Source: a phage
Sequence record: NC_105507.1
DNA length: 49,995 nt
Direction: 5' to 3' (one strand)
Shown in pieces: positions 5,036 to 43,946 of the stretch. The notes under the pieces are model-generated. The model worked only from the letters and a program-made list of their open reading frames with translations, did no database searches and was not told where the DNA came from. The position numbers and the translations under genes are program-made. The first letter of the stretch is position 1, and every line of letters starts with the position of its first letter.

Positions 5036-5078
5036 TAGCACTTTTTGTTAAAACGCCCGGCATTTTGTCGGGCATAAT
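5036..5078 (+). promoter_or_regulatory. TAGCAC-box promoter-like cassette
   Basis: exact box, hairpin GCCCGGC..GTCGGGC, CATAAT at 22-bp spacing. Confidence 0.55.
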
Positions 5079-6878: not shown

Positions 6879-7094
6879 ATGAAAGATTTTATTAACGCAG
6901 CTACCGCCGGATCTGGCGGTTCATCTATCGCAAGCGCCGCTACAGGGCAGTTAACCATTGCTATTGCCAGTTTTGTTTTAATGGCTGCATTCGGTGCGTG
7001 GGGCGCTTACCTTCGCTGGCGTGATAGTAAAAAATTCCACGAGGCGATCGAAAAAGGTGATATTCAAAAAGCTATTGAGATCAGGGGCAAGTAA
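6879..7094 (+). CDS. putative holin (single TMD)
   Basis: 71-aa protein with one hydrophobic helix and charged C-terminus, immediately upstream of endolysin; GGAG RBS. Confidence 0.55.
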
Positions 7095-7585
7095 TGAGCA
7101 TAAAGAACAAGGTAGCGGCTGCGGCCTTTGGCGTTGCGGTTGCCTTGACTTCTCCACTTCTTGAAGAGATCGAAGGGGTAAGATACAAGCCATACAAAGA
7201 TATTGCTGGAGTATGGACGGTTTGCGCAGGAATCACCGGACCAGATGTTATCCTGGGGAAAACGTACACTAAAAAAGAGTGTGATGCTTTGTTGGCTAAA
7301 CATATCCAGGTTGCTAAAAAAGAAGTTGACAAGCAGGTTAAGGTTGACATTCCTGATAGTATGCGTGCAGCAATGTACTCATTCACTTATAATGCAGGTG
7401 TGGGAGCTTTCAGAAATTCAACAATGCTGAAACTCATCAACCAGGGGAAATTAAACGAGGCTTGCGATCAGCTTTATCGTTGGACGTATTACCATAACCC
7501 CAAAACAGGAAAGCGCGAGAAGTCTAAAGGCTTACTTAACAGGCGCAAGGTCGAATACAAATATTGCACGATGGATCTGAAATGA
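7094..7585 (+). CDS. SAR endolysin (GH24 lysozyme, P21 R-like)
   Basis: N-terminal signal-anchor-release helix then [46 protein letters not shown] lysozyme signature. Confidence 0.95.
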
Positions 7586-7977
7586 TGAAGAAATTTTTAC
7601 TTACACCAATCGCAATGGCGGTGATCTTGTCTGGATGTTCAACCGTTACGCCACTGACCGGATTAATCGGCAGTAAGCCGGAAATCACAGCACAGGCTGG
7701 CGCGGAGAACGTGAAGCAGACAGTTGGCATTACAGCAAAGCAGGACGCCAGCACAAAACAGGAAACCACAATAAAGGAATCTGCGGTTGACAAGGTGGAC
7801 ACGTCCAGCAAGAAGGATTTCACAACATCAACCATTCAGGCCAATACCATCAAGGCAGACAAAATTCAGGTCGTGCAGGGTAATAACGGCAGATGGTACG
7901 ATCCGGTAGTCATATGCGTGGTTGTGTTAATTGTGCTGATTTGTCTTTACTGGAGAGAAAAGAAAAAGGAGGCTTAA
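7582..7977 (+). CDS. unimolecular spanin (T1 gp11-like)
   Basis: lipoprotein signal with lipobox LSGC at N-terminus and C-terminal [19 protein letters not shown]; overlaps endolysin stop. Confidence 0.8.
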
Positions 7978-14275: not shown

Positions 14276-14310
14276 TTACTATCTCCTGAGCGGTTCGTTT
14301 CGATGTGTGT

Positions 14311-14353
14311 AATGTACCCGATCAGGCGGCCTGAGTTTTAACAAAAAGCGCTA
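14311..14353 (-). promoter_or_regulatory. TAGCAC-box promoter-like cassette (leftward early)
   Basis: box variant TAGCGC, TCAGG/CCTGA hairpin, TACATT at 22-bp spacing. Confidence 0.5.
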
Positions 14354-14383
14354 TTTGACGGTTAGCACCAGGATTGTGATCGA

Positions 14384-14474
14384 AATAATCAAAAGTAATC
14401 ATTCGTAATCAAATCACGTCAAAATGATGATTGCCTTTGCAAATTTGATGAGAAAAGTAATCACGTTTAATCAT
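14384..14474. repeat. phased iteron-like array (TAATCA x5)
   Basis: TAATC at about 14386, 14396, 14406 (10-bp phasing) and 14458, 14468. Confidence 0.5.
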
Positions 14475-14649
14475 TGGTTGCAGTGGAGATAGTGAAACCT
14501 TCCCCTCTTGCCTCACTTTTCCGCCTGGCTGTCAGTGGTTGTTGTCTTTTGTTCACCCCTGTTACCGATTTCAGGCGGCGTGTTTCCGCGCGGTTTTCCG
14601 GTGTAGCGAAAACGGAAAAAACAAAGAAAATCCTCTATAATACATTGAA

Positions 14650-14810
14650 AATAAAGATTATTTATTTATATATATCTATAATGTTTTCTTTTTGTTCTCA
14701 CTGTTACAGTGCTTTTTGTTGGTTATGGTGTGGTTGTGTGTGGGTATATATGGATAGTTGCGCGCGCGGCGGATTGCATATGTATATATACTTTTTCCGG
14801 CGGATTGCGT
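14650..14810. repeat. AT/GT-rich intergenic element, copy A (homologous to 44060-44205)
   Basis: shared blocks TTTATTTATTTA, T-rich CTTGTT, GT-rich GGTT repeats, CATRTGTATRTATATA..CCGGCG; contains direct repeat CGGCGGATTGC x2. Confidence 0.5.
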
Positions 14811-14909
14811 TAACAGCGTGAACAGAAAAATAACAGCCGCGAAATCAATAACTTGCGCATGATTTTGTAGTTTTTCGATATTGGTAACGTTTTGAATACA
14901 ACAAAAACA

Positions 14910-14937
14910 TTGACACGCACCAAATAGCTTTTATAAT
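14910..14937 (+). promoter_or_regulatory. consensus sigma70-type promoter (rightward early)
   Basis: TTGACA-16 bp-TATAAT, about 30 bp upstream of RBS/ATG 14969. Confidence 0.7.
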
Positions 14938-14968
14938 GCGCCAACAGTCAACAACTGGAGGAAAGGAA

Positions 14969-15430
14969 ATGGAACAGAAGACCACTAAGGACTATTGCGA
15001 TTGGCTTCGCGAGCTTGGTCGCCGCCTGGCTAGTGGCGATATTGAAGAGTATAAAATGTCACTAATTGACCTGGCCGGAATGTTAAGCGGTGACGACTGC
15101 TACAAGATCACGCGCAGTTCATCCTACAGCCGGACCATTATCAACCGCGTTCCAGAAGTAAGGGCCGCAGGTCGGGTAAGCATCAAGGTAGAGGAAACGG
15201 AAGATGATAAATTTTACGTTTTCCGCATGGTCCGAGAATCGAAAAGGAAAATCATCACGCCAGAAGAATTGCCAGCCATCAAGGCAAGGGCGATCAAAAA
15301 GTTTGCCGATCGCTTACTGGCAGCAATCCCGAATATCGTTGACCTGGAAGGGGATAAACTGGCTGGGGCTTGCGAGGGCGTAAGCCGCTACCAGGATATG
15401 ATCCGCGAAATCATCAAAGAGGAAGAGTAA
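14969..15430 (+). CDS. hypothetical protein (first rightward early gene)
   Basis: GGAGG RBS 7 nt before ATG 14969; track ORF start 14936 lies inside the -10. Confidence 0.55.
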   Translation: MEQKTTKDYCDWLRELGRRLASGDIEEYKMSLIDLAGMLSGDDCYKITRSSSYSRTIINRVPEVRAAGRVSIKVEETEDDKFYVFRMVRESKRKIITPEELPAIKARAIKKFADRLLAAIPNIVDLEGDKLAGACEGVSRYQDMIREIIKEEE

Positions 15431-15702
15431 TGAAAAAGGCATTAATCAGCGTTTTGGCGGCAATGGCATTCCTGACCGGATGCAAAGAAAATGGCGCGCA
15501 TGTTGGCAATGTGCAGATGGCTAACCCTGGTGATGACTACAGCGTAAGGGAGCTATTCACCGCTGACGGTTGCACCGTTTACCGATTCTATGACGATCGC
15601 ACTGTTTACTTCACCAACTGCAAGGGCACTACTAGCCGGGAAGTGTCGAAAAGCAATGGCAAAGGCACGAAGACAGAACATATGACCGTCGAGACAAAAT
15701 AG
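15430..15702 (+). CDS. lipoprotein (candidate superinfection-exclusion/receptor-blocking)
   Basis: signal peptide with lipobox LTGC (MKKALISVLAAMAFLTGC); TAATG overlap with upstream gene. Confidence 0.7.
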   Translation: MKKALISVLAAMAFLTGCKENGAHVGNVQMANPGDDYSVRELFTADGCTVYRFYDDRTVYFTNCKGTTSREVSKSNGKGTKTEHMTVETK

Positions 15703-15742
15703 CACTTTTTGTTAAAACTCAAAAACGATAATCAGGCATAAT
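15700..15742 (+). promoter_or_regulatory. TAGCAC-box promoter-like cassette
   Basis: exact box overlapping TAG stop; CATAAT at 22-bp spacing. Confidence 0.5.
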
Positions 15743-15944
15743 ACACACATAGACGGGCGGCAAGGATTGCTGCGGGAGAGGAGCGACGCAGGGGCTTGAT
15801 CGAAGTGTCAGGATTCCCAACCGTGAGGCCAGAACTATCACACTCGCCACCAGGCAGAACGCTAGATAGGTCACTGAGCTGAGGCTACCGACGAAGTGAA
15901 GCCCGTCACCAAAGATTAAACGATTATTTATGTGAAAGGGGTTA
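15743..15944 (+). ncRNA. candidate structured non-coding RNA or long structured leader
   Basis: about 200 bp GC-rich stretch with no plus-strand ORF, downstream of box cassette; complementary GACGGGC/GCCCGTC about 160 nt apart. Confidence 0.3.
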
Positions 15945-16127
15945 ATGATGGATAAGATCATCAAAATGAGCGAAGCCAAGCCGGGAATGATGGTTAAGTT
16001 TGCTGGCAAATATCGCCTAGTGCTGGATAACTGCCGCAAAGAGAACATTCTTACCATTCGTGTAAATGGCAAGGCGCAGCTATTCGCCCCTAACGCAGAT
16101 ATTGACGTTGAAGTTAGAATTAAGTAA
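15945..16127 (+). CDS. hypothetical protein
   Basis: ORF with purine-rich RBS. Confidence 0.45.
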   Translation: MMDKIIKMSEAKPGMMVKFAGKYRLVLDNCRKENILTIRVNGKAQLFAPNADIDVEVRIK

Positions 16128-16142
16128 TCAGGAGAAAGCACC

Positions 16143-17019: not shown

Positions 17020-17227
17020 GCGCGTCAAGCACAGGTTTACTGATAACCACGGCGACGCGATTGATGTATACAAGTTTGGCGATCGAGTTTTTATTGATGG
17101 CACGTTTGAAGGTGGGCGTAGGCCGGATTTTAGGTCGATACTTACCGTTGACCAAGTGCGCAAGCTGGCAGATAAGTTAAATGATCTGGCAGATGAAATA
17201 GAATACAAGCAAATCCATTTTAATTGA
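17006..17227 (+). CDS. hypothetical protein
   Basis: ORF overlapping upstream stop. Confidence 0.5.
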   Translation: MKTNKRVKHRFTDNHGDAIDVYKFGDRVFIDGTFEGGRRPDFRSILTVDQVRKLADKLNDLADEIEYKQIHFN

Positions 17228-17238
17228 TAGGTTTTATA

Positions 17239-17949
17239 ATGAAAAAATACACTTTCGAACTATGGGGCAAGAAGTACGAATTAATCACCAGCAAGCCGAT
17301 TGTTATCGTTGACCTGGACGGCACACTATCGGACGGATCGCATCGTTTGCATTTGCTGCCAACTGAAAACTTACACCTTACGGAATCGTGGAGCGAATTT
17401 AACAGGGCCGCCGCCGGAGATTCACCGATTAAAAGCACGATCGCGGTTATTAACGGTTTGTGGGTGTCGGGATTTGCCATCGTCATCTTGACCGGACGCA
17501 GCGACGAGGTGCGCTATGAAACCTGCAAATGGTTGAATGAGAGCGGCGTGAAGTTTGACGAAATCATCATGCGCCGCCAGGAGGACAACCGAAAGGATAC
17601 GGTTATTAAAGAAGAAGCCTTGCGCGCTATTGGCCTGGACAACATTGTTTGCGCCTTTGACGATTCGCCGAACGTGGTTAAGCACTTCCGCAGCTTGGGG
17701 ATCACAACCTATCAGGTCACGGAATACGACAAGCCACACGCTCACATACAATCTCACGGCGTGGAATCAATAAAGATCACGAAGCGCGCCCGATTCGTCG
17801 ACAGCAAAGACAGCATGGTTAATGCCAGCTTTATCAAAGGCAAGGTTTATGATGTTCATAGCCATGATAAAAACCGATTCTTTTTGTGGGATGAAAAAGG
17901 TTTTGGCTGGTGCTTTGAACACGACGACGGCGATTTTGTTAATGCGTAA
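17239..17949 (+). CDS. HAD-superfamily phosphatase (nucleotidase / polynucleotide 3'-phosphatase-like)
   Basis: DLDGT motif I, LTGRS motif II, FDDS motif IV. Confidence 0.75.
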   Translation: MKKYTFELWGKKYELITSKPIVIVDLDGTLSDGSHRLHLLPTENLHLTESWSEFNRAAAGDSPIKSTIAVINGLWVSGFAIVILTGRSDEVRYETCKWLNESGVKFDEIIMRRQEDNRKDTVIKEEALRAIGLDNIVCAFDDSPNVVKHFRSLGITTYQVTEYDKPHAHIQSHGVESIKITKRARFVDSKDSMVNASFIKGKVYDVHSHDKNRFFLWDEKGFGWCFEHDDGDFVNA

Positions 17950-17992
17950 TAGCACTTTTTGTTAAAACATCTTAACGGGCTTGCGGTATAGT
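17950..17992 (+). promoter_or_regulatory. TAGCAC-box promoter-like cassette
   Basis: exact box after TAA stop; TATAGT in loop of GGGCTT/AAGCCC hairpin at 22-bp spacing. Confidence 0.55.
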
Positions 17993-20580: not shown

Positions 20581-20623
20581 TAGCACTTTTTGTTAAAACT
20601 TCCGCAAGGGCATTTGGTAAAGT
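20581..20623 (+). promoter_or_regulatory. TAGCAC-box promoter-like cassette
   Basis: exact box right after TAA stop; TAAAGT in loop of AAGGGCA/TGCCCTT hairpin. Confidence 0.5.
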
Positions 20624-39025: not shown

Positions 39026-39055
39026 AAAAATACCCGCCTTGCGCGGGTTTTTTTG
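39024..39055 (+). terminator. rho-independent terminator
   Basis: CCCGC/GCGGG stem plus T7, flanked upstream by A7. Confidence 0.65.
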
Positions 39056-39103
39056 TGCATTTATAATGTGCAAACCAAGAAACAGCACAAAAGGTTAAAA
39101 GTC

Positions 39104-42100
39104 ATGGCTAAATATATGATAAGCGGCAGTAAGGGCGGAAGCAAAAAGCCATACGTGCCAAAAGAGATGGAAGATAACCTGATCTCGATAAACAAGATTA
39201 AAGTTTTGCTGGCTGTATCTGATGGCGAGTGCGATCCAGATTTCACGTTGCGCGATCTTTATCTTGATGATGTTCCGGTTATTGCCAGCGATGGCACTGT
39301 TAACTACGAGGGAGTTACGGCTGAATATCGACCAGGTACGCAGACGCAAGATTACATCCAGGGTTTTACTGACACATCAAGTGAGGTGACAGTTGCAAGA
39401 GATATTACAGGAGACAATCCTTATGTTATTTCTGTTACAAATAAAAATCTATCTGCGGTAAGAATAAAGATCCTGATGCCAGTAGGCATTAAAACAGAGG
39501 ATAACGGCGATCTTGTTGGCGTAAGGGTTGAGTATGCCGTAGATATGGCTGTTGATGGCGGTTCTTATAGCGAGGTTATGAGAGATGTAATTGACGGCAA
39601 GACAAGATCAGGATACGACCGCAGCAGAAGGATTGATCTTCCTAAGTTTGATGAGCGCGTTTTAATCCGAGTAAAGCGACTGACTCCAGACAGCACATCT
39701 TCAAAGGTGACTGATAAAATCAAGCTGCAAAGTTACGCTGAGGTTGTTGATGCAAAATTCCGCTATCCTCTGACTGGACTTGTATTCGTAGAATTTGACA
39801 GCGAATTGTTTCCTACGCAAATCCCTAACATTTCTATAAAAAAGAAATGGAAGATTATTAATGTGCCAAGCAACTATGATCCAATATCAAGAGAATATCA
39901 CGGGTCATGGGATGGGACTTTTAAAAAAGCGTGGTCAAATAATCCTGCTTGGGTTCTTTATGATCTGGTGACAAATCAGCGTTATGGACTTGATCAGCGA
40001 GAGTTAGGAATACAGATCGACAAGTGGAGCTTATACGAGGCGGGCGTTTACTGCGATCAGAAAGTTCCAGACGGTAAAGGCGGCACTGAGCCTCGCTACC
40101 TATGCGATGTGGTGATTCAGAATCAAGTTGAGGCTTATCAGCTAATCCGTGACATTTGCTCAATCTTTCGCGGAATGAGTTTTTGGAATGGTGAGAGCTT
40201 ATCAATCGTGATTGATAAGCCGCGCGATCCATCATACGTGTTTACTAATGAAAACGTCATCAACGGTGATTTTCAGTACACAAACGCAAGCGAAAAAAGC
40301 ATGTACACGCAGTGTAACGTGACGTTTGACGACGAACAAAACATGTATCAGCAGGACGTAGAGGGGGTTTTTGATACTGAGGCTGCATTACGATTTGGAT
40401 ACAATCCAACAAGCATTACAGCGATCGGTTGTACACGCAGGAGCGAAGCGAATCGTCGCGGTCGGTGGGTTTTGAAAACAAACCTTAGAAGCACTACTGT
40501 AAACTTTGCTACCGGACTAGAGGGGATGATTCCATCAATAGGTGATGTGATTGCTATCGCTGATAATTTTCAGAGCAGCAACCTAACGTTAAACCTATCG
40601 GGCCGAGTGATGGAAGTTTCAGGATTGCAGGTTTTCGTTCCGTTTAAGGTTGATGCTCGTCCTGGTGATTTTATTATCATCAACAAGCCGGACGGAAAGC
40701 CAGTTAAGCGCACGATCTCAAAGGTTAGCGCAGACGGAAAAACCATTGAGTTAAATATTGGATTTGGTTTTGATGTTAAGCCTGATACTGTTTTTGCGAT
40801 TGACCGTACTGACCTTGCGTTGCAGCAATACGTTGTGACAACTATCAGCAAGGGTGATGACGAAAACGAGTTTACCTATTCAATCACTGCTGTAGAGTAC
40901 GATCCGAACAAATACGACGAGATTGATTATGGAGTAAACATTGATGACAGACCGACTTCAATTGTTCAGCCTGACGTGATGGCAGCGCCTGAGAACGTTA
41001 AGATCTCATCTTATTCTCGCGTCGTGCAGGGTGTTAGCGTTGAGACTATGGTTGTTTCATGGGATAAGGTTCCTTACGCATCGCTTTATGAAATGCAGTG
41101 GCGAAAAGGTGATGGTAACTGGCTGAATACGCCGCAGACCGCTAACAAAGAGATAGAGGTAGAAGGGATTTACTCTGGCAACTACCAAGTAAGGGTGAGA
41201 TCAGTTTCTGCAAGCGGTAACGCTTCCCCGTGGTCAAAGATTGCAACCGCCACTCTGACAGGTAAAGTTGGAGAGCCAGGAGCGCCGATTAATCTTACGG
41301 CTTCTGATAATGAAGTTTTTGGCATTCGTGTCAAATGGGGTATGCCGGAAGGATCAGGCGATACGGCTTACATTGAGCTTCACCAATCGCCAGACGGAAC
41401 GGTTGAAAACTCAAGTCTGCTTACGCTGATTCCATATCCTCAATATGAGTATTGGCATAGCACGTTACCAGCGGGGCAAGTTGTATGGTATAGAATCCGC
41501 AGCGTTGACAGAATAGGCAACGTTTCAAGCTGGACTGACTTTGTTCGCGGCATGGCGTCAGATGACGTTGAATCTGTTTTGGGCGACATTCTGGACAAGA
41601 TTTTTGATACAGAAGCTGGTCAAGAAATCAAAGAGAACGCCATAGACAGTGCCAATAAAATCAAAGACCAGGCGCAATCAATCATACAGAACGCGTTGGC
41701 AAATGATGCAGATGTGAAGTGGACGCGAGTGCAAAACGGAAAGCGCAAGGCTGAATATGGTCATGCTCTTGAGCTTATCGCCAATGAAACAGAAGCGCGC
41801 GTAACTCAAATCGAAGAATTAAGGGCATCAATTGATGGCGAGATAACATCAAGCATCAAGACAGTGCAGGAGGCAATTGCCACTGAATCAGAGACGCGAG
41901 CGACTCAAATTCAGCAGCTTGATTCTAAATTCACAAAAGAAATCGACGGCGTGCGCAAGGATACTTCTGCAAGCATTAGCGATGTAAGGCAGACAATCAC
42001 TAACGAGTCAGAAGCGCGCGCTCAGGCCGTTCAGCAGCTTGACGCTAAGTTCACGAAAGAGATAAACGACCTTGACGGAGTTATCAAAACAGAAGTCGAG

Positions 42101-42682
42101 GCTAACATCTCAGAAGTGAAACAGGCGATCGCCAATGAGACAGAGGCAAGGGTTCAGGCTGACCAGGCATTAACAGCACGATTTGGCGACGTTGAATCTG
42201 CATTGGTTGAAAAGTTGGATTCTTGGGCGAGCGTTGATTCAGTTGGGGCTAAATACGCTATGAAACTTGGCCTTACTTACAAAGGCCAGCAATACAGCGC
42301 AGGAATGGTGATGCAGCTTTCGCAGGGTTCATCCGGCCTTATCTCGCAAATTTTGTTTGATGCTAACAGGTTCGCCATTATGACTAGCTCTACTGGAGGG
42401 ACTTTTACTTTGCCTTTCGTGGTTGAGAATAATCAGGTTTTCATTAATAGTCTTTTGGTGAAGAACGGTTCAATCACTAATGCGATGATTGGTAATGTGA
42501 TTCAGTCAAACAACTTTGTTCAAAACCAGCAAGGATGGAGGCTTGATAAAAACGGAATCTTTGAGAATTACGGATCAACGCCAGGAGAAGGAGCTACTAA
42601 ATTCACCAATGAGGGATTGAAGGTAAAAGATGCAAACGGAGTATTGAGGGTTGAAGTCGGAAGGATTACCGGAAGCTGGTAA
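39104..42682 (+). CDS. tail tip / host specificity protein (lambda J-like)
   Basis: about 1190 aa, synteny after I. Confidence 0.9.
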   Translation: MAKYMISGSKGGSKKPYVPKEMEDNLISINKIKVLLAVSDGECDPDFTLRDLYLDDVPVIASDGTVNYEGVTAEYRPGTQTQDYIQGFTDTSSEVTVARDITGDNPYVISVTNKNLSAVRIKILMPVGIKTEDNGDLVGVRVEYAVDMAVDGGSYSEVMRDVIDGKTRSGYDRSRRIDLPKFDERVLIRVKRLTPDSTSSKVTDKIKLQSYAEVVDAKFRYPLTGLVFVEFDSELFPTQIPNISIKKKWKIINVPSNYDPISREYHGSWDGTFKKAWSNNPAWVLYDLVTNQRYGLDQRELGIQIDKWSLYEAGVYCDQKVPDGKGGTEPRYLCDVVIQNQVEAYQLIRDICSIFRGMSFWNGESLSIVIDKPRDPSYVFTNENVINGDFQYTNASEKSMYTQCNVTFDDEQNMYQQDVEGVFDTEAALRFGYNPTSITAIGCTRRSEANRRGRWVLKTNLRSTTVNFATGLEGMIPSIGDVIAIADNFQSSNLTLNLSGRVMEVSGLQVFVPFKVDARPGDFIIINKPDGKPVKRTISKVSADGKTIELNIGFGFDVKPDTVFAIDRTDLALQQYVVTTISKGDDENEFTYSITAVEYDPNKYDEIDYGVNIDDRPTSIVQPDVMAAPENVKISSYSRVVQGVSVETMVVSWDKVPYASLYEMQWRKGDGNWLNTPQTANKEIEVEGIYSGNYQVRVRSVSASGNASPWSKIATATLTGKVGEPGAPINLTASDNEVFGIRVKWGMPEGSGDTAYIELHQSPDGTVENSSLLTLIPYPQYEYWHSTLPAGQVVWYRIRSVDRIGNVSSWTDFVRGMASDDVESVLGDILDKIFDTEAGQEIKENAIDSANKIKDQAQSIIQNALANDADVKWTRVQNGKRKAEYGHALELIANETEARVTQIEELRASIDGEITSSIKTVQEAIATESETRATQIQQLDSKFTKEIDGVRKDTSASISDVRQTITNESEARAQAVQQLDAKFTKEINDLDGVIKTEVEANISEVKQAIANETEARVQADQALTARFGDVESALVEKLDSWASVDSVGAKYAMKLGLTYKGQQYSAGMVMQLSQGSSGLISQILFDANRFAIMTSSTGGTFTLPFVVENNQVFINSLLVKNGSITNAMIGNVIQSNNFVQNQQGWRLDKNGIFENYGSTPGEGATKFTNEGLKVKDANGVLRVEVGRITGSW

Positions 42683-42710
42683 AAAAGGGGGCATAGCCCC
42701 CTTTAATTTT
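42681..42710. terminator. bidirectional rho-independent terminator
   Basis: GGGGGC ata GCCCCC flanked by A6 and T-rich run between converging genes. Confidence 0.7.
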
Positions 42711-43323
42711 AATCATAGTGTGATGCATTTATAACCAAAACAGATGAAGCGGTGTAAATACCAACAGGTCCAGGAGTTTGTGCAACCTGCCTAGAAAAAG
42801 AGTAGATCCCGTTACCATACGCGGCAGCTTGAGACTCAAAAATCATGAATCCACCTAAAGCCGGATTAGGAACAGAGTTTAATGCTGTCAGTGATGGCAT
42901 TATGGCGCAAGGATAGCCCATGTTAACATCAAATGCGATCCCGCTTACGCCTACTTGCTTTGCATCTAGCGGCCTCATTTTTCCATGATAAACCATTTCA
43001 CCATGAGCATTATAAAACGCTATGCCGTGACTACCTGGGGGAGTCACCATATTACTAAAAGCATAAACAATAACCTCACCCTGATTATCAGATCTATCAA
43101 GTCTTATTGCGTGCCTTCCACCATTGTTAAATTGCGTGAATGATATGTATGATTTAGCGGTCAATCTAACAAAGAAAAAACATACCCTATCAACAGGAAT
43201 TGACGAAGTAAAAACGGTTCCGGTATTAGCAGATATTACGGCCCGATCAATTAGATTAACTGGAGTGAAATCTGGACTTAACCATAACGATCCGTCTGAT
43301 TTTTTTATACTCATCCCGTACAT
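42709..43323 (-). CDS. hypothetical protein (reverse cassette gene 3)
   Basis: ATG 2 nt after upstream stop; track ORF starts at TTG 43335. Confidence 0.5.
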   Translation of the reverse strand: MYGMSIKKSDGSLWLSPDFTPVNLIDRAVISANTGTVFTSSIPVDRVCFFFVRLTAKSYISFTQFNNGGRHAIRLDRSDNQGEVIVYAFSNMVTPPGSHGIAFYNAHGEMVYHGKMRPLDAKQVGVSGIAFDVNMGYPCAIMPSLTALNSVPNPALGGFMIFESQAAAYGNGIYSFSRQVAQTPGPVGIYTASSVLVINASHYD

Positions 43324-43325
43324 TA

Positions 43326-43604
43326 TCACCCCCAAAAAGTATATATATATCTTGAATCAGATCCAGAAAGCCCACTCCATGTAACGGTGTCGCCACTTAC
43401 CCCTAAGTTTGGTGCGCCAGGGTCGCCACCACGCCAGGAATTCATGCCAACATATATTGCTTTCAATGATTTACCTGGCGGCCTGTTTTGGTAAGTCTTG
43501 CTACCTGATGGCTGAGTGAATTTATCAAGGAAGAAAACAGGCGTTAAAAGCCCTGTAACTTCCCTTCCTCGATCGTCATATATTGCATAACCATATTGCG
43601 CCAT
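43326..43604 (-). CDS. hypothetical protein with YDxxGR-like segment (reverse cassette gene 2)
   Basis: ORF; TAATG overlap with lipoprotein gene. Confidence 0.5.
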   Translation of the reverse strand: MAQYGYAIYDDRGREVTGLLTPVFFLDKFTQPSGSKTYQNRPPGKSLKAIYVGMNSWRGGDPGAPNLGVSGDTVTWSGLSGSDSRYIYTFWG

Positions 43605-43879
43605 TAATTACACCTCAAATCAATAAATTTACTTTCATTTTGCCAACGGTTGATAAATTTAACTTCTTTATTGTCAACGCTCAACCTGTATTGCTTTTGG
43701 CTGAATCTGTTTTCTCGGACTGCATTAATTTTGACTTCATGTAATCCGTTAACAGGGAATGTTTTAACGTTAAATTTTGCCGTGCAATCGATCTCCTTGA
43801 AGTTGCCAGTAGGCGACGCTGCGCATCCTGTCAGAGCGGCTACAGTGGCGATAACTGCGATTAACTTTTTCATCTTCAA
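43604..43879 (-). CDS. outer-membrane lipoprotein, Cor-like superinfection-exclusion candidate
   Basis: signal peptide with lipobox LTGC; AAGGAG RBS; placement next to tail genes as for cor. Confidence 0.65.
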   Translation of the reverse strand: MKMKKLIAVIATVAALTGCAASPTGNFKEIDCTAKFNVKTFPVNGLHEVKINAVRENRFSQKQYRLSVDNKEVKFINRWQNESKFIDLRCN

Positions 43880-43904: not shown

Positions 43905-43946
43905 ACTATACACGATCTTGGGCATCGCGTTTAGCAAAAAGTGCTA
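43905..43946 (-). promoter_or_regulatory. TAGCAC-box promoter-like cassette (variant) for reverse cassette
   Basis: revcomp TAGCACTTTTTGCTAAAC, TATAGT at 21-bp spacing, then AAGGAG RBS. Confidence 0.5.

What the first reader, a model, noticed from the sequence alone, without database searches (positions are those of the whole stretch)
15430..15702. Second lipoprotein gene in the early rightward operon
A 90-aa protein with a clear lipobox (FLTGC) and three cysteines in the mature part is encoded as the second early gene. With the Cor-like gene at 43604-43879 the phage carries two small lipoproteins, which could give two layers of exclusion or target different envelope components.
Basis: inference. 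Interest (0 to 1): 0.45.

Follow-up and report, generated by a model that had tools for sequence, protein, structure and literature searches.

The report
Uncharacterised early phage lipoprotein (DUF4884)
The gene is real and encodes a small lipoprotein, probably anchored in the outer membrane, from a large phage-borne family (Pfam DUF4884) that nobody has characterised; it is unrelated to the phage's Cor-type exclusion lipoprotein, and its role in blocking other phages is plausible but untested.

Summary
Window 15430-15702 (+) is a 90-aa ORF with a textbook lipoprotein signal peptide (MKKALISVLAAMAFLTG|C). It overlaps the upstream gene as TAATG. It lies behind the only full-consensus sigma-70 promoter in the 50-kb genome.

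The window is Escherichia phage JLBYU16 (Warwickvirus, Drexlerviridae). GenBank already calls this protein "DUF4884 domain-containing protein".

The family is large, with about 1,750 clusters at 50% identity, and wherever I examined the context it was phage or prophage. Its lipobox Cys is 98% conserved. Cysteine pairs 48/64 and 76/80 are kept or lost together, which fits periplasmic disulfides. A confident AF2 model (pLDDT 85) gives a tether plus a five-stranded beta domain with no relative in the PDB, including Llp and Rtp45.

The gene is not Cor-like. It never sat next to tail or lysis genes in the contexts I annotated. Its three allele classes in Warwickviruses vary independently of the almost invariant Cor locus.

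So it is a second, independent envelope lipoprotein, and a third lipoprotein, the u-spanin, also exists. The exclusion role is an analogy only. I favour exclusion of competing phages through a target other than the phage's own receptor (about 0.35). Moderate interest.

The parts
14910..14937 (+). Full-consensus sigma-70 promoter (TTGACA-16 nt-TATAAT) driving the DUF7174-DUF4884 gene pair
   Evidence: 12/12 match, the only such site in 49,995 bases (expected 0.02). Exact copies stand upstream of the same gene pair in JLBYU07, vB_EcoS-95, an IMG/VR relative and MatMar, although DNA around it in MatMar is only 65-71% identical.
14969..15430 (+). Upstream gene, DUF7174 protein (153 aa from ATG 14969), no signal peptide, function unknown
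   Evidence: Pfam PF23796 E=3.9e-51 and phrog_4841. It is found in 219 phage records against 117 for DUF4884, so it is not an obligate partner.
15419..15422 (+). Shine-Dalgarno GAGG, 7 nt before the ATG; upstream stop and ATG overlap as TAATG (15428-15432)
   Evidence: Read directly from the sequence.
15430..15702 (+). DUF4884 lipoprotein gene (90 aa plus stop), the finding itself
15430..15483 (+). Signal peptide (residues 1-17) plus lipobox Cys18 codon. The DNA is conserved across allele classes.
   Evidence: Lipobox scan. C18 is conserved in 98% of 150 family representatives. This stretch is 93-100% identical at DNA level to vB_EcoS-95, whereas the mature part drops to 35-71%.
15484..15546 (+). 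Variable tether, residues 19-39, without regular secondary structure
   Evidence: AF2 model. Tether length in the family is 13-25 residues, median 16, with polar composition.
15547..15699 (+). Five-stranded beta domain (residues 40-90) with the C48-C64 pair and the motif LFxxDGCTVYRFYDDRTVYFTNC
   Evidence: AF2 pLDDT 84.7 with strands 40-45, 48-54, 58-62, 66-75 and 80-89. Conservation table. Cys co-occurrence.
15702..15718 (+). Copy of the phage's repeated promoter motif GCACTTTTTGTTAAAAC, overlapping the stop codon. It probably starts the next transcription unit.
   Evidence: There are 15 copies in the window against 0.27 expected, each co-oriented with the gene downstream where one follows and most followed ~17 nt later by a TATAAT-like hexamer.
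43604..43873 (-). Cor-like lipoprotein (89 aa from ATG 43873), the phage's receptor-locus exclusion candidate, with its own repeated-motif promoter at 43928-43944
   Evidence: phrog_1119 'Cor superinfection exclusion protein' E=8.5e-8. NCBIfam Cor E=8e-4, below cut-off. Neighbours are phrog_557 and phrog_425. Promoter context.
7582..7977 (+). T1-type unimolecular spanin: N-terminal lipobox (ILSGC) and C-terminal transmembrane helix, in the lysis cassette. This is the third predicted lipoprotein.
   Evidence: Translation. phrog_1804 'Rz-like spanin' E=4e-47.

Best explanation
The gene encodes a DUF4884-family lipoprotein, an accessory gene carried in the early or replication regions of many unrelated phages.

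The sequence supports the following. Host RNA polymerase would read it, together with the upstream DUF7174 gene, from the only full-consensus sigma-70 promoter in the genome. The product has a type-II signal peptide with lipobox LTGC. The mature protein is a roughly 20-residue tether followed by a roughly 50-residue five-stranded beta domain, which holds one cysteine pair (C48, C64).

The following steps are inferred from established lipoprotein biology. The protein is exported by Sec. Cys18 is lipidated by Lgt, the signal peptide is cut by LspA, and Lnt adds the third acyl chain. [quoted passage not shown] DsbA forms the C48-C64 disulfide in the periplasm.

The following is inferred by analogy only. 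The tethered beta domain binds a periplasm-exposed envelope component. This makes the infected cell and its debris a poor target for other phages, as the small lipoproteins Llp (T5), Cor (T1, phi80) and Rtp45 (Rtp) do by binding the periplasmic face of FhuA or LptD. The target would be something other than the phage's own receptor, which the Cor-like gene beside the receptor-binding locus presumably covers. The variable tether and C-terminal hairpin, exchanged as a cassette between conserved flanks, would set the specificity.

My confidence that it is a real, expressed DUF4884 outer-membrane lipoprotein is about 0.9. My confidence that its job is exclusion of competing phages is about 0.35.
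For: Identity and reality of the gene:
- Pfam DUF4884 hit above the gathering score.
- The exact protein is in GenBank as 'DUF4884 domain-containing protein' of phage JLBYU16.
- 1,754 clusters at E<=1e-3 in the exhaustive search.
- pN/pS of 0.14-0.20 among the more diverged relatives.

Lipoprotein and periplasmic location:
- 158 of 168 sampled homologues have a lipobox, and C18 is 98% conserved.
- Asp at +2 is rare in the family: 8 of 158.
- C48 and C64 are present together in 149 of 150 sequences. C76 and C80 are present together in 106 and absent together in 40, with 3 exceptions. This is the pattern expected of disulfides.
- Two relatives replace the lipobox with an N-terminal transmembrane anchor, which again puts the domain outside the cytoplasm.

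Expression: the unique consensus promoter is kept in divergent relatives, the start overlaps the upstream stop as TAATG, and there is a Shine-Dalgarno sequence.

Fold: AF2 pLDDT 84.7.

Accessory and acting alone:
- All contexts examined are phage or prophage.
- No neighbouring gene family is shared across 28 lineages.
- Annotated neighbours are replication, nin-region, DNA-modification or RNA-repair genes and never tail or lysis genes.

Pressure to diversify: three allele classes sit at the same locus in otherwise 95-100% identical genomes, with breakpoints at the end of the signal-peptide coding region and at the stop codon.

Analogy: Llp, Cor and Rtp45 are small outer-membrane lipoproteins of siphophages that bind the periplasmic side of receptors (PMC9586334, PMC12685063 and PMC13164509, read).
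Against: No DUF4884 protein has been tested experimentally, as far as the searched literature shows.

The protein shows no sequence or fold similarity to any known exclusion lipoprotein and matches no PADLOC model.

The core motif is very strongly conserved across phages of Escherichia, Serratia, Pseudomonas, Xanthomonas and Ralstonia. This fits a conserved host target, or a purely structural core, better than a set of variable receptors.

The receptor of this phage is not known. The isolating laboratory reports that it does not use FhuA as sole receptor (PMC10373560).

The window's protein has Arg at position 70, where all close relatives have Trp (Trp or Tyr in 61% of the family), so this particular copy could be impaired.

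Lipidation, localisation and timing are all inferred.
Confidence: 0.4

Rival explanations
1. Host-envelope takeover or counter-defence unrelated to exclusion. The tethered domain would bind and inhibit, or hijack, a conserved periplasmic or outer-membrane host component, for example an envelope-stress sensor, a peptidoglycan hydrolase, Tol-Pal, or the Bam or Lpt machinery. This would keep the infected cell productive or blunt an envelope-based abortive response.
For: The core motif and charged residues R52, D55 and K78 are at least 94% conserved across phages of very different hosts, which suggests a conserved target. The gene sits among early host-takeover and anti-defence genes: polynucleotide kinase at 17224-17949, the PNK and Stp-like genes in Rtp, and Rnl1, Lar and NAMPT in another phage. 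It lies behind the strongest host-type promoter in the genome.
Against: No candidate target was identified. No fold match to any known inhibitor such as MliC/PliC, RcsF or LptM. Conserved aromatic and Cys residues may simply form the core of a very small domain. Cassette-like allele turnover within one genus is more typical of phage-phage or phage-receptor arms races.
Confidence: 0.3
2. A second layer of masking of the phage's own receptor, redundant or cooperative with the Cor-like lipoprotein.
For: Both are small, probably outer-membrane lipoproteins made by the same phage. Rtp also carries both kinds: Rtp45, which binds LptD, and rtp3, its DUF4884 gene.
Against: The DUF4884 allele class is uncoupled from the Cor and receptor-binding locus. 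Cor-like proteins 94-100% identical occur with DUF4884 alleles of >=90%, ~55% and ~45% identity. The family occurs in LptD-dependent phages (JeanPiccard shown, Rtp predicted), in Warwickviruses that do not depend solely on FhuA, and in Pseudomonas, Serratia and Xanthomonas phages. It was never adjacent to tail genes in the lineages sampled. Many Drexlerviridae do without it: 117 of the roughly 220-260 records that share the region carry it.
Confidence: 0.1
3. A role in lysis timing or progeny release, for example a periplasmic sensor or antiholin-like regulator, or a helper of the spanin.
For: It is a periplasm-facing membrane-tethered protein, as T4 RI and the spanins are. The phage has a holin, a SAR endolysin and a u-spanin cassette.
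Against: It lies about 7.5 kb from the lysis cassette and in a different transcription unit. It has no C-terminal transmembrane segment and no spanin PHROG hit. It was never next to lysis genes in the other lineages sampled. Many Drexlerviridae with the same lysis cassette appear to lack it, judged from record counts rather than a direct check.
Confidence: 0.07
4. A spurious or decaying ORF with no function.
For: The window copy carries R70 in place of the Trp found in all close relatives. One database relative (P0003) is frameshifted.
Against: Purifying selection. A very large conserved family. Conserved promoter, Shine-Dalgarno and translational coupling. A confident fold prediction.
Confidence: 0.03

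Closest known systems
Llp of phage T5 and Cor of T1, phi80 and N15 (FhuA-binding exclusion lipoproteins)
   Same: A small (60-90 aa) lipoprotein of a virulent siphophage, probably outer-membrane, with disulfide-forming cysteines, predicted to be made early and to face the periplasm.
   Different: No sequence similarity beyond the signal peptide and no structural match. Llp and Cor genes sit next to the receptor-binding gene, whereas this one is 28 kb away in the early region. Its alleles do not track the receptor locus. The function of Llp and Cor is demonstrated; none is for DUF4884.
Rtp45 of phage Rtp (LptD-binding exclusion lipoprotein; PMC12685063)
   Same: Also in Drexlerviridae. A small beta-rich periplasmic lipoprotein. 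Rtp45 binds its target partly by adding a strand to a beta-sheet, a mode that a five-stranded open sheet could also use (inference).
   Different: Rtp carries both Rtp45 and a DUF4884 gene, rtp3, so the two are separate genes with separate positions. No fold match was returned from the PDB copy searched.
Pfam DUF4884 (PF16225), phrog_6360 and phrog_902
   Same: The protein is a member: it scores above the Pfam cut-off and shares the motif, the cysteines, the length and the lipobox.
   Different: It belongs to the minority subtype with one cysteine pair instead of two (40 of 150), and it has R70 in place of the common Trp or Tyr. The family has no assigned function.
Bor/Iss (lambda) and other prophage 'moron' lipoproteins
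   Same: A small outer-membrane lipoprotein carried as an accessory gene. The Pseudomonas prophage members of the family sit in nin-like or integrase-proximal moron positions.
   Different: No Bor family hit. The window phage is virulent, so a lysogen-fitness role cannot apply here.
Spanins (Rz1-type o-spanin, T1 gp11-type u-spanin)
   Same: A phage-encoded outer-membrane lipoprotein.
   Different: It is not in the lysis cassette, has no C-terminal transmembrane helix and has no partner gene. The phage already has a u-spanin at 7582-7977.

Membership tests
Pfam DUF4884 (PF16225) | Match to the family HMM at or above the curated gathering score | tested here: met
   32.0 bits against a cut-off of 30, E=1e-7, residues 35-64. 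Sixteen of the 18 other proteins returned with it carry the precomputed PF16225 label.
Pfam DUF4884 (PF16225) | Conserved core LFxxDGCxVYRFxD...YFTxC with the C48/C64 pair, total length about 80-95 aa | tested here: met
   All core positions are present. L42, F43, G47, C48, Y51, R52, F53, D55, Y60, C64, G77 and K78 are at least 94% conserved in 150 representatives.
Bacterial lipoproteins (signal peptidase II substrates) | Positively charged n-region, hydrophobic h-region, and lipobox [LVI][ASTVI][GAS]C within about the first 35 residues | tested here: met
   MKK / ALISVLAAMAF / LTG|C. The Cys is 98% conserved in the family.
Bacterial lipoproteins (signal peptidase II substrates) | Actual lipidation and LspA cleavage; outer-membrane sorting (no Asp at +2) | not testable with these tools
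   Residue +2 is Lys, which predicts Lol-dependent outer-membrane sorting in E. coli (established +2 rule). This needs globomycin or palmitate labelling and fractionation.
Cor / Llp / Rtp45 superinfection-exclusion lipoproteins | Sequence membership (NCBIfam lamb_exclu_cor, phrog_1119) | tested here: not met
   No Cor hit for the DUF4884 protein in NCBIfam or PHROGs. hhalign against the window's own Cor-like protein aligns only the signal peptide. The Cor-like gene at 43604-43873 does hit phrog_1119.
Cor / Llp / Rtp45 superinfection-exclusion lipoproteins | Fold similar to Llp or Rtp45 | tested here: not met
Cor / Llp / Rtp45 superinfection-exclusion lipoproteins | Gene adjacent to, and co-varying with, the receptor-binding protein locus | tested here: not met
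   It lies 28 kb from the gpJ and Cor locus. Its alleles are uncoupled from Cor alleles. Neighbours in other lineages are replication or early genes.
Cor / Llp / Rtp45 superinfection-exclusion lipoproteins | Blocks adsorption or DNA entry by binding the periplasmic face of a receptor | not testable with these tools
   This needs plating, adsorption and binding assays. No complex-prediction tool was available.
Spanins | Location in the lysis cassette, and either a C-terminal transmembrane helix (u-spanin) or embedding in or adjacency to an i-spanin gene | tested here: not met
   The lysis cassette is at 6879-7977. The DUF4884 protein has no C-terminal hydrophobic segment and no spanin PHROG hit.
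Known anti-phage defence proteins (PADLOC) | Match to a PADLOC model | tested here: not met
   No hit at E<=0.1.

The most novel reading that the evidence does not exclude
DUF4884 would be a structurally new, very widespread class of phage envelope lipoproteins that act independently of the phage's own receptor. Made first after infection, or from prophages, they would bind a conserved periplasm-facing host component and so shut the cell to other phages or disarm an envelope response. Specificity would be retuned by swapping the mature-domain cassette between conserved flanks (the signal-peptide coding region and the promoter motif at the stop codon).
Probability: 0.3. Interest if true: 0.6.

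Novelty: new member of a known kind. Interest (0 to 1): 0.38.

Why it matters
Small outer-membrane lipoproteins are the best understood way in which siphophages close the door behind them. All characterised ones (Llp, Cor, Rtp45) sit beside the receptor-binding gene and mask the phage's own receptor. This gene belongs to a separate family of about 1,750 sequence clusters, with a different predicted fold and no link to tail genes. In this phage it sits behind the only full-consensus host promoter.

If it proves to be an exclusion or envelope-takeover factor, it would add a receptor-independent class to this toolkit and give a function to a large DUF. It would also bear on phage cocktails and on T1-type contamination, because one phage could pre-empt unrelated ones. 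If it does nothing measurable in such assays, it is one more accessory ORF of unknown function.

Tried and rejected
- Remote homology to solved structures by sequence profile: only noise.
- The first AF2 run, on a 20-sequence alignment, was too weak to use (pLDDT 56). The run on 150 sequences was good.
- Conserved-neighbour search across 61 loci and 28 lineages: no shared partner. The apparent shared 'families' were overlapping-frame artefacts of the gene itself.
- Domain fusions in long homologues: no extra Pfam domains; several look like upstream ORFs read through into the lipoprotein.
- PADLOC: no hit.
- NCBIfam: only signal-peptide-level noise.
- E. coli chromosomal homologue by DNA search: none.
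- Rfam and folding of the ORF-less 240-nt spacer downstream: nothing.
- Literature searches for DUF4884, Drexlerviridae lipoproteins, phage-encoded lipoproteins, and SECphi27 with lipoprotein found no functional study.
- Spanin, Bor and own-receptor-masking readings were considered and set aside for the reasons given under rival explanations and membership tests.
- The genome-collection scan could use only the exact peptide DGCTVYRF, so the count of bacterial and prophage copies (10 loci) is a lower bound.

Full report
**What is there.** Window 15430-15702 (+) is an ATG-to-TAG ORF of 90 codons. The product begins MKKALISVLAAMAFLTGC. It has a two-lysine n-region, an 11-12 residue hydrophobic core and the lipobox L-T-G-C, which is the pattern of a signal peptidase II substrate. 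Its cysteines are C18 (the one that would be lipidated), C48 and C64. The ATG overlaps the stop codon of the upstream gene as TAATG, and a GAGG lies 7 nt upstream. The one caveat is that 'three cysteines in the mature part' includes the lipidated one.

**Which genome.** The region is 97-99% identical to Warwickvirus phages of the Drexlerviridae, such as Phunderstruck, swan01 and tunus. An exact-sequence look-up shows that the protein is UGO54781.1, 'DUF4884 domain-containing protein' of Escherichia phage JLBYU16, on a contig of 49,995 bp. The paper that lists the phage gives JLBYU16 as OK272471.1, 49,995 bp, Warwickvirus (PMC10373560). The window is therefore that whole genome, and the gene is already deposited with a DUF label.

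**Is it a real gene?** Yes, on four counts.
- It scores 32 bits against Pfam DUF4884, whose cut-off is 30, and it hits two PHROGs of unknown function.
- A word-indexed search found 19 homologues. An exhaustive profile search found 1,754 clusters at 50% identity with E<=1e-3, and 709 with E<=1e-10.
- Among five close relatives, the more diverged pairs have pN/pS of 0.14-0.20.
- In 150 representatives, L42, F43, G47, C48, Y51, R52, F53, D55, Y60, C64, G77 and K78 are at least 94% conserved, and the lipobox Cys is 98% conserved.

**Lipoprotein and periplasmic location.**
- 158 of 168 sampled family members have a recognisable lipobox, and Asp at +2 is rare (8 of 158). The window protein has Lys at +2. 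By the established E. coli +2 rule this predicts transfer to the outer membrane by the Lol system (inference).
- The cysteines behave as disulfide pairs. C48 and C64 occur together in 149 of 150 sequences, and the one sequence lacking one lacks both. C76 and C80 occur together in 106 and are absent together in 40, with 3 exceptions.
- The window protein belongs to the one-pair subtype.
- Two metagenomic relatives replace the lipobox with an N-terminal transmembrane anchor. This again places the domain outside the cytoplasm.

**Expression.**
- A perfect TTGACA-16-TATAAT lies at 14910-14937. It is the only such site in the genome, where 0.02 are expected.
- An exact copy stands before the same gene pair in JLBYU07, vB_EcoS-95, an IMG/VR relative and MatMar. 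In MatMar the surrounding DNA is only 65-71% identical.
- The promoter is followed by a DUF7174 gene (14969-15430) and then the lipoprotein gene.
- Right at the lipoprotein stop codon begins a copy of a 17-nt motif, GCACTTTTTGTTAAAAC. The motif occurs 15 times in the genome against 0.27 expected. Where a gene follows, the motif points the same way as that gene, and in most copies a TATAAT-like hexamer follows about 17 nt later. This looks like the phage's own promoter consensus. One copy drives the Cor-like gene.

So the DUF7174-DUF4884 pair appears to be a two-gene unit with a promoter type of its own, and the next unit starts at 15702. That it is 'early' is a reasonable inference from the promoter, not a measurement. 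In Rtp the homologous pair (rtp1 and rtp3) are the first genes at the left end of the genome.

**Distribution and context.**
- tblastn finds the gene in 117 of 50,697 phage records. Most are Drexlerviridae (Warwickvirus, Hanrivervirus, Rtpvirus and others). It also occurs in Serratia myophages of about 68 kb, in Erwinia, Pantoea and Pseudomonas phages, and in Xanthomonas and Ralstonia jumbo phages.
- The shared DNA region is in 262 records and DUF7174 in 219. The lipoprotein is therefore accessory and is not an obligate partner of DUF7174.
- Metagenomic homologues lie in a 124-kb phage next to Rnl1, NAMPT and Lar genes, and in a 71-kb phage next to 7-deazaguanine genes.
- Ten bacterial genome hits are mostly in Pseudomonas. 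The one I annotated is a prophage, with NinX, a methylase and a reverse transcriptase nearby.
- Fifty IMG/VR loci come from contigs of 5 to 358 kb.
- Clustering all neighbouring ORFs across 61 loci and 28 lineages gave no shared partner family.
- Neighbours that could be annotated are replication proteins O and P, RdgC, RusA, ParB, an SNF2 helicase, a GNAT and the like. None is a tail or lysis gene.

**Relation to the Cor-like gene.**
- The gene at 43604-43873 lies on the minus strand and most likely starts at ATG 43873. It hits phrog_1119, 'Cor superinfection exclusion protein'. Beside it are the two proteins (phrog_557 and phrog_425) that accompany cor downstream of gpJ (PMC13164509).
- Profile comparison of the DUF4884 family with this Cor-like protein aligns only the signal peptides.
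- I tested linkage directly. Cor-like proteins 94-100% identical to the window's occur in phages whose DUF4884 protein falls in three classes: at least 90% identical (swan01, tunus, tonn and others), about 55% (MatMar, BEBK14, Jahat, WaterSpirit) and about 45% (atuna, FritzSarasin, mar001J1, tiwna, vB_EcoS-95, JLBYU26, Poky).
- The family is also present in JeanPiccard, whose receptor was shown to be LptD, and in Rtp, for which LptD is predicted. The JLBYU Warwickviruses do not use FhuA as sole receptor.

The lipoprotein therefore does not track the phage's receptor module.

**Allele turnover.** Against vB_EcoS-95, DNA identity is 93-100% up to about 15480, which is the end of the signal-peptide coding region. 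It then falls to 33-71% through the mature part and the following spacer and small gene, and recovers at 16140. Against MatMar the divergent block runs from 14340 to 15720 and identity is 98-100% afterwards. A three-way alignment shows that the signal-peptide coding stretch, and the 22 nt from the stop codon into the promoter motif, are the conserved flanks of the variable mature part. This cassette-like pattern suggests repeated exchange and selection for diversity, as is common for genes involved in conflicts.

**What it most likely does.** Three things are well supported: the gene is real, it encodes a lipoprotein precursor, and its domain folds in an oxidising compartment. Three things are inferred from general lipoprotein biology: the Lgt/LspA/Lnt processing pathway, outer-membrane sorting, and a DsbA-made disulfide.

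The function is unknown, and I commit to the following ranking.
- Most likely (about 0.35): the domain binds a periplasm-exposed envelope component other than the phage's own receptor and thereby excludes competing phages. The analogy is with Llp, Cor and Rtp45, which are all small outer-membrane lipoproteins of siphophages that bind the periplasmic face of FhuA or LptD (PMC9586334; PMC12685063).
- Next (about 0.3): an envelope-takeover or counter-defence role against a conserved host target. The very strong conservation of the core across phages of distant hosts favours this.
- Masking of the phage's own receptor as a second layer (about 0.1) is disfavoured by the linkage test.
- A lysis role (about 0.07) is disfavoured by position and by the absence of spanin features. 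The phage has a complete cassette of holin, SAR endolysin and u-spanin at 6879-7977.
- A non-functional ORF is about 0.03.

**Caveats.** The window copy has Arg70 where every close relative has Trp (Trp or Tyr in 61% of the family) and Asn21 where they have Asp, so this isolate's protein may be altered. The model coordinates could not be read, so I could not measure the C48-C64 distance. No complex prediction was possible. The genome-collection scan used one exact peptide and so undercounts bacterial copies.

**Novelty and verdict.** The protein and its DUF label are already in GenBank, and the family is in Pfam. What this work adds:
- the family is essentially phage-borne and very large;
- it is a disulfide-bonded lipoprotein with a fold unlike the known exclusion lipoproteins;
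- it is unlinked to the receptor module;
- it is exchanged as a cassette;
- in this phage it sits behind the only full-consensus host promoter.

No functional study exists in the literature searched. The finding is a sound observation with an untested interpretation, and it is of moderate interest.

Noticed in passing
window 1478, 3967, 5038, 8293(-), 10455(-), 11129(-), 13046(-), 14351(-), 15702, 16719, 17952, 20583, 29408(-), 33166(-), 43944(-): The 17-nt motif GCACTTTTTGTTAAAAC (usually preceded by aATA) occurs 15 times against 0.27 expected. Where a gene follows it is co-oriented with that gene, and in most copies a TATAAT-like hexamer follows about 17 nt later. It is probably the phage's own promoter consensus or a regulator-binding promoter. 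In many copies the spacer or the -10 region lies inside a promoter-specific inverted repeat, for example GGGCTTgcggTATAGTAAGCCC at 17952, AAGGGCAtttggTAAAGTGCCCTT at 20583 and GCCCGGCattttGTCGGGCATAAT at 5038.
   Followed up: partly
window 15719-15944: A roughly 225-nt G+C-rich stretch with no plus-strand ORF lies between the promoter motif at 15702 and the next small gene at 15945. It is 98-100% identical in MatMar but replaced in vB_EcoS-95. It has no Rfam match and folds no better than shuffled sequence (z = +0.8 on both strands). The only ORF is a doubtful 155-aa minus-strand one.
   Followed up: partly
window 15637-15639 (codon 70) and 15490-15492 (codon 21): JLBYU16 has Arg70 and Asn21 where all four close relatives compared have Trp70 and Asp21. 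Position 70 is Trp or Tyr in 61% of the family, so this copy may be functionally altered.
   Followed up: partly
window 14276-14909: About 630 nt between the leftward and rightward gene blocks have no convincing gene. The 115-aa TTG ORF at 14474-14821 is Cys/Trp-rich and is annotated in vB_EcoS-95 only as hypothetical with two transmembrane segments. The stretch holds a leftward copy of the promoter motif (14351) and a small terminator-like hairpin at 14699-14711.
   Followed up: no
window 7582-7977: A T1-type unimolecular spanin (lipobox ILSGC, C-terminal transmembrane helix) follows the holin (6879-7094) and the SAR-type endolysin (7094-7585). The phage therefore has three predicted lipoproteins, not two.
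   Followed up: yes
window 42709-43879 (minus strand): The Cor-like gene is the first of three co-oriented genes (Cor-like, phrog_557 'outer membrane protein', phrog_425 'membrane associated protein') that converge on gpJ (39053-42682). A recent paper links this three-gene cassette to FhuA use (PMC13164509), yet the isolating laboratory reports that JLBYU16 does not use FhuA as sole receptor (PMC10373560).
   Followed up: partly
L006, L007, L009-L014, L026, L027, L030-L033, L036, L039, L049 (Pseudomonas prophages and IMG/VR contigs): The Pseudomonas members of the family carry a conserved extra C-terminal tail of about 40 residues (...NERQLSPHETQPEPTPALAPGRWIDERYQL) that is absent from the coliphage proteins. 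In these prophages the gene lies near NinX-like and integrase genes.
   Followed up: no
L042 3730-4113 and L044 3902-4282: Two metagenomic relatives have an N-terminal transmembrane anchor in place of the lipobox, followed directly by the DGCTVYRF core. This is an inner-membrane-anchored version of the same domain.
   Followed up: no
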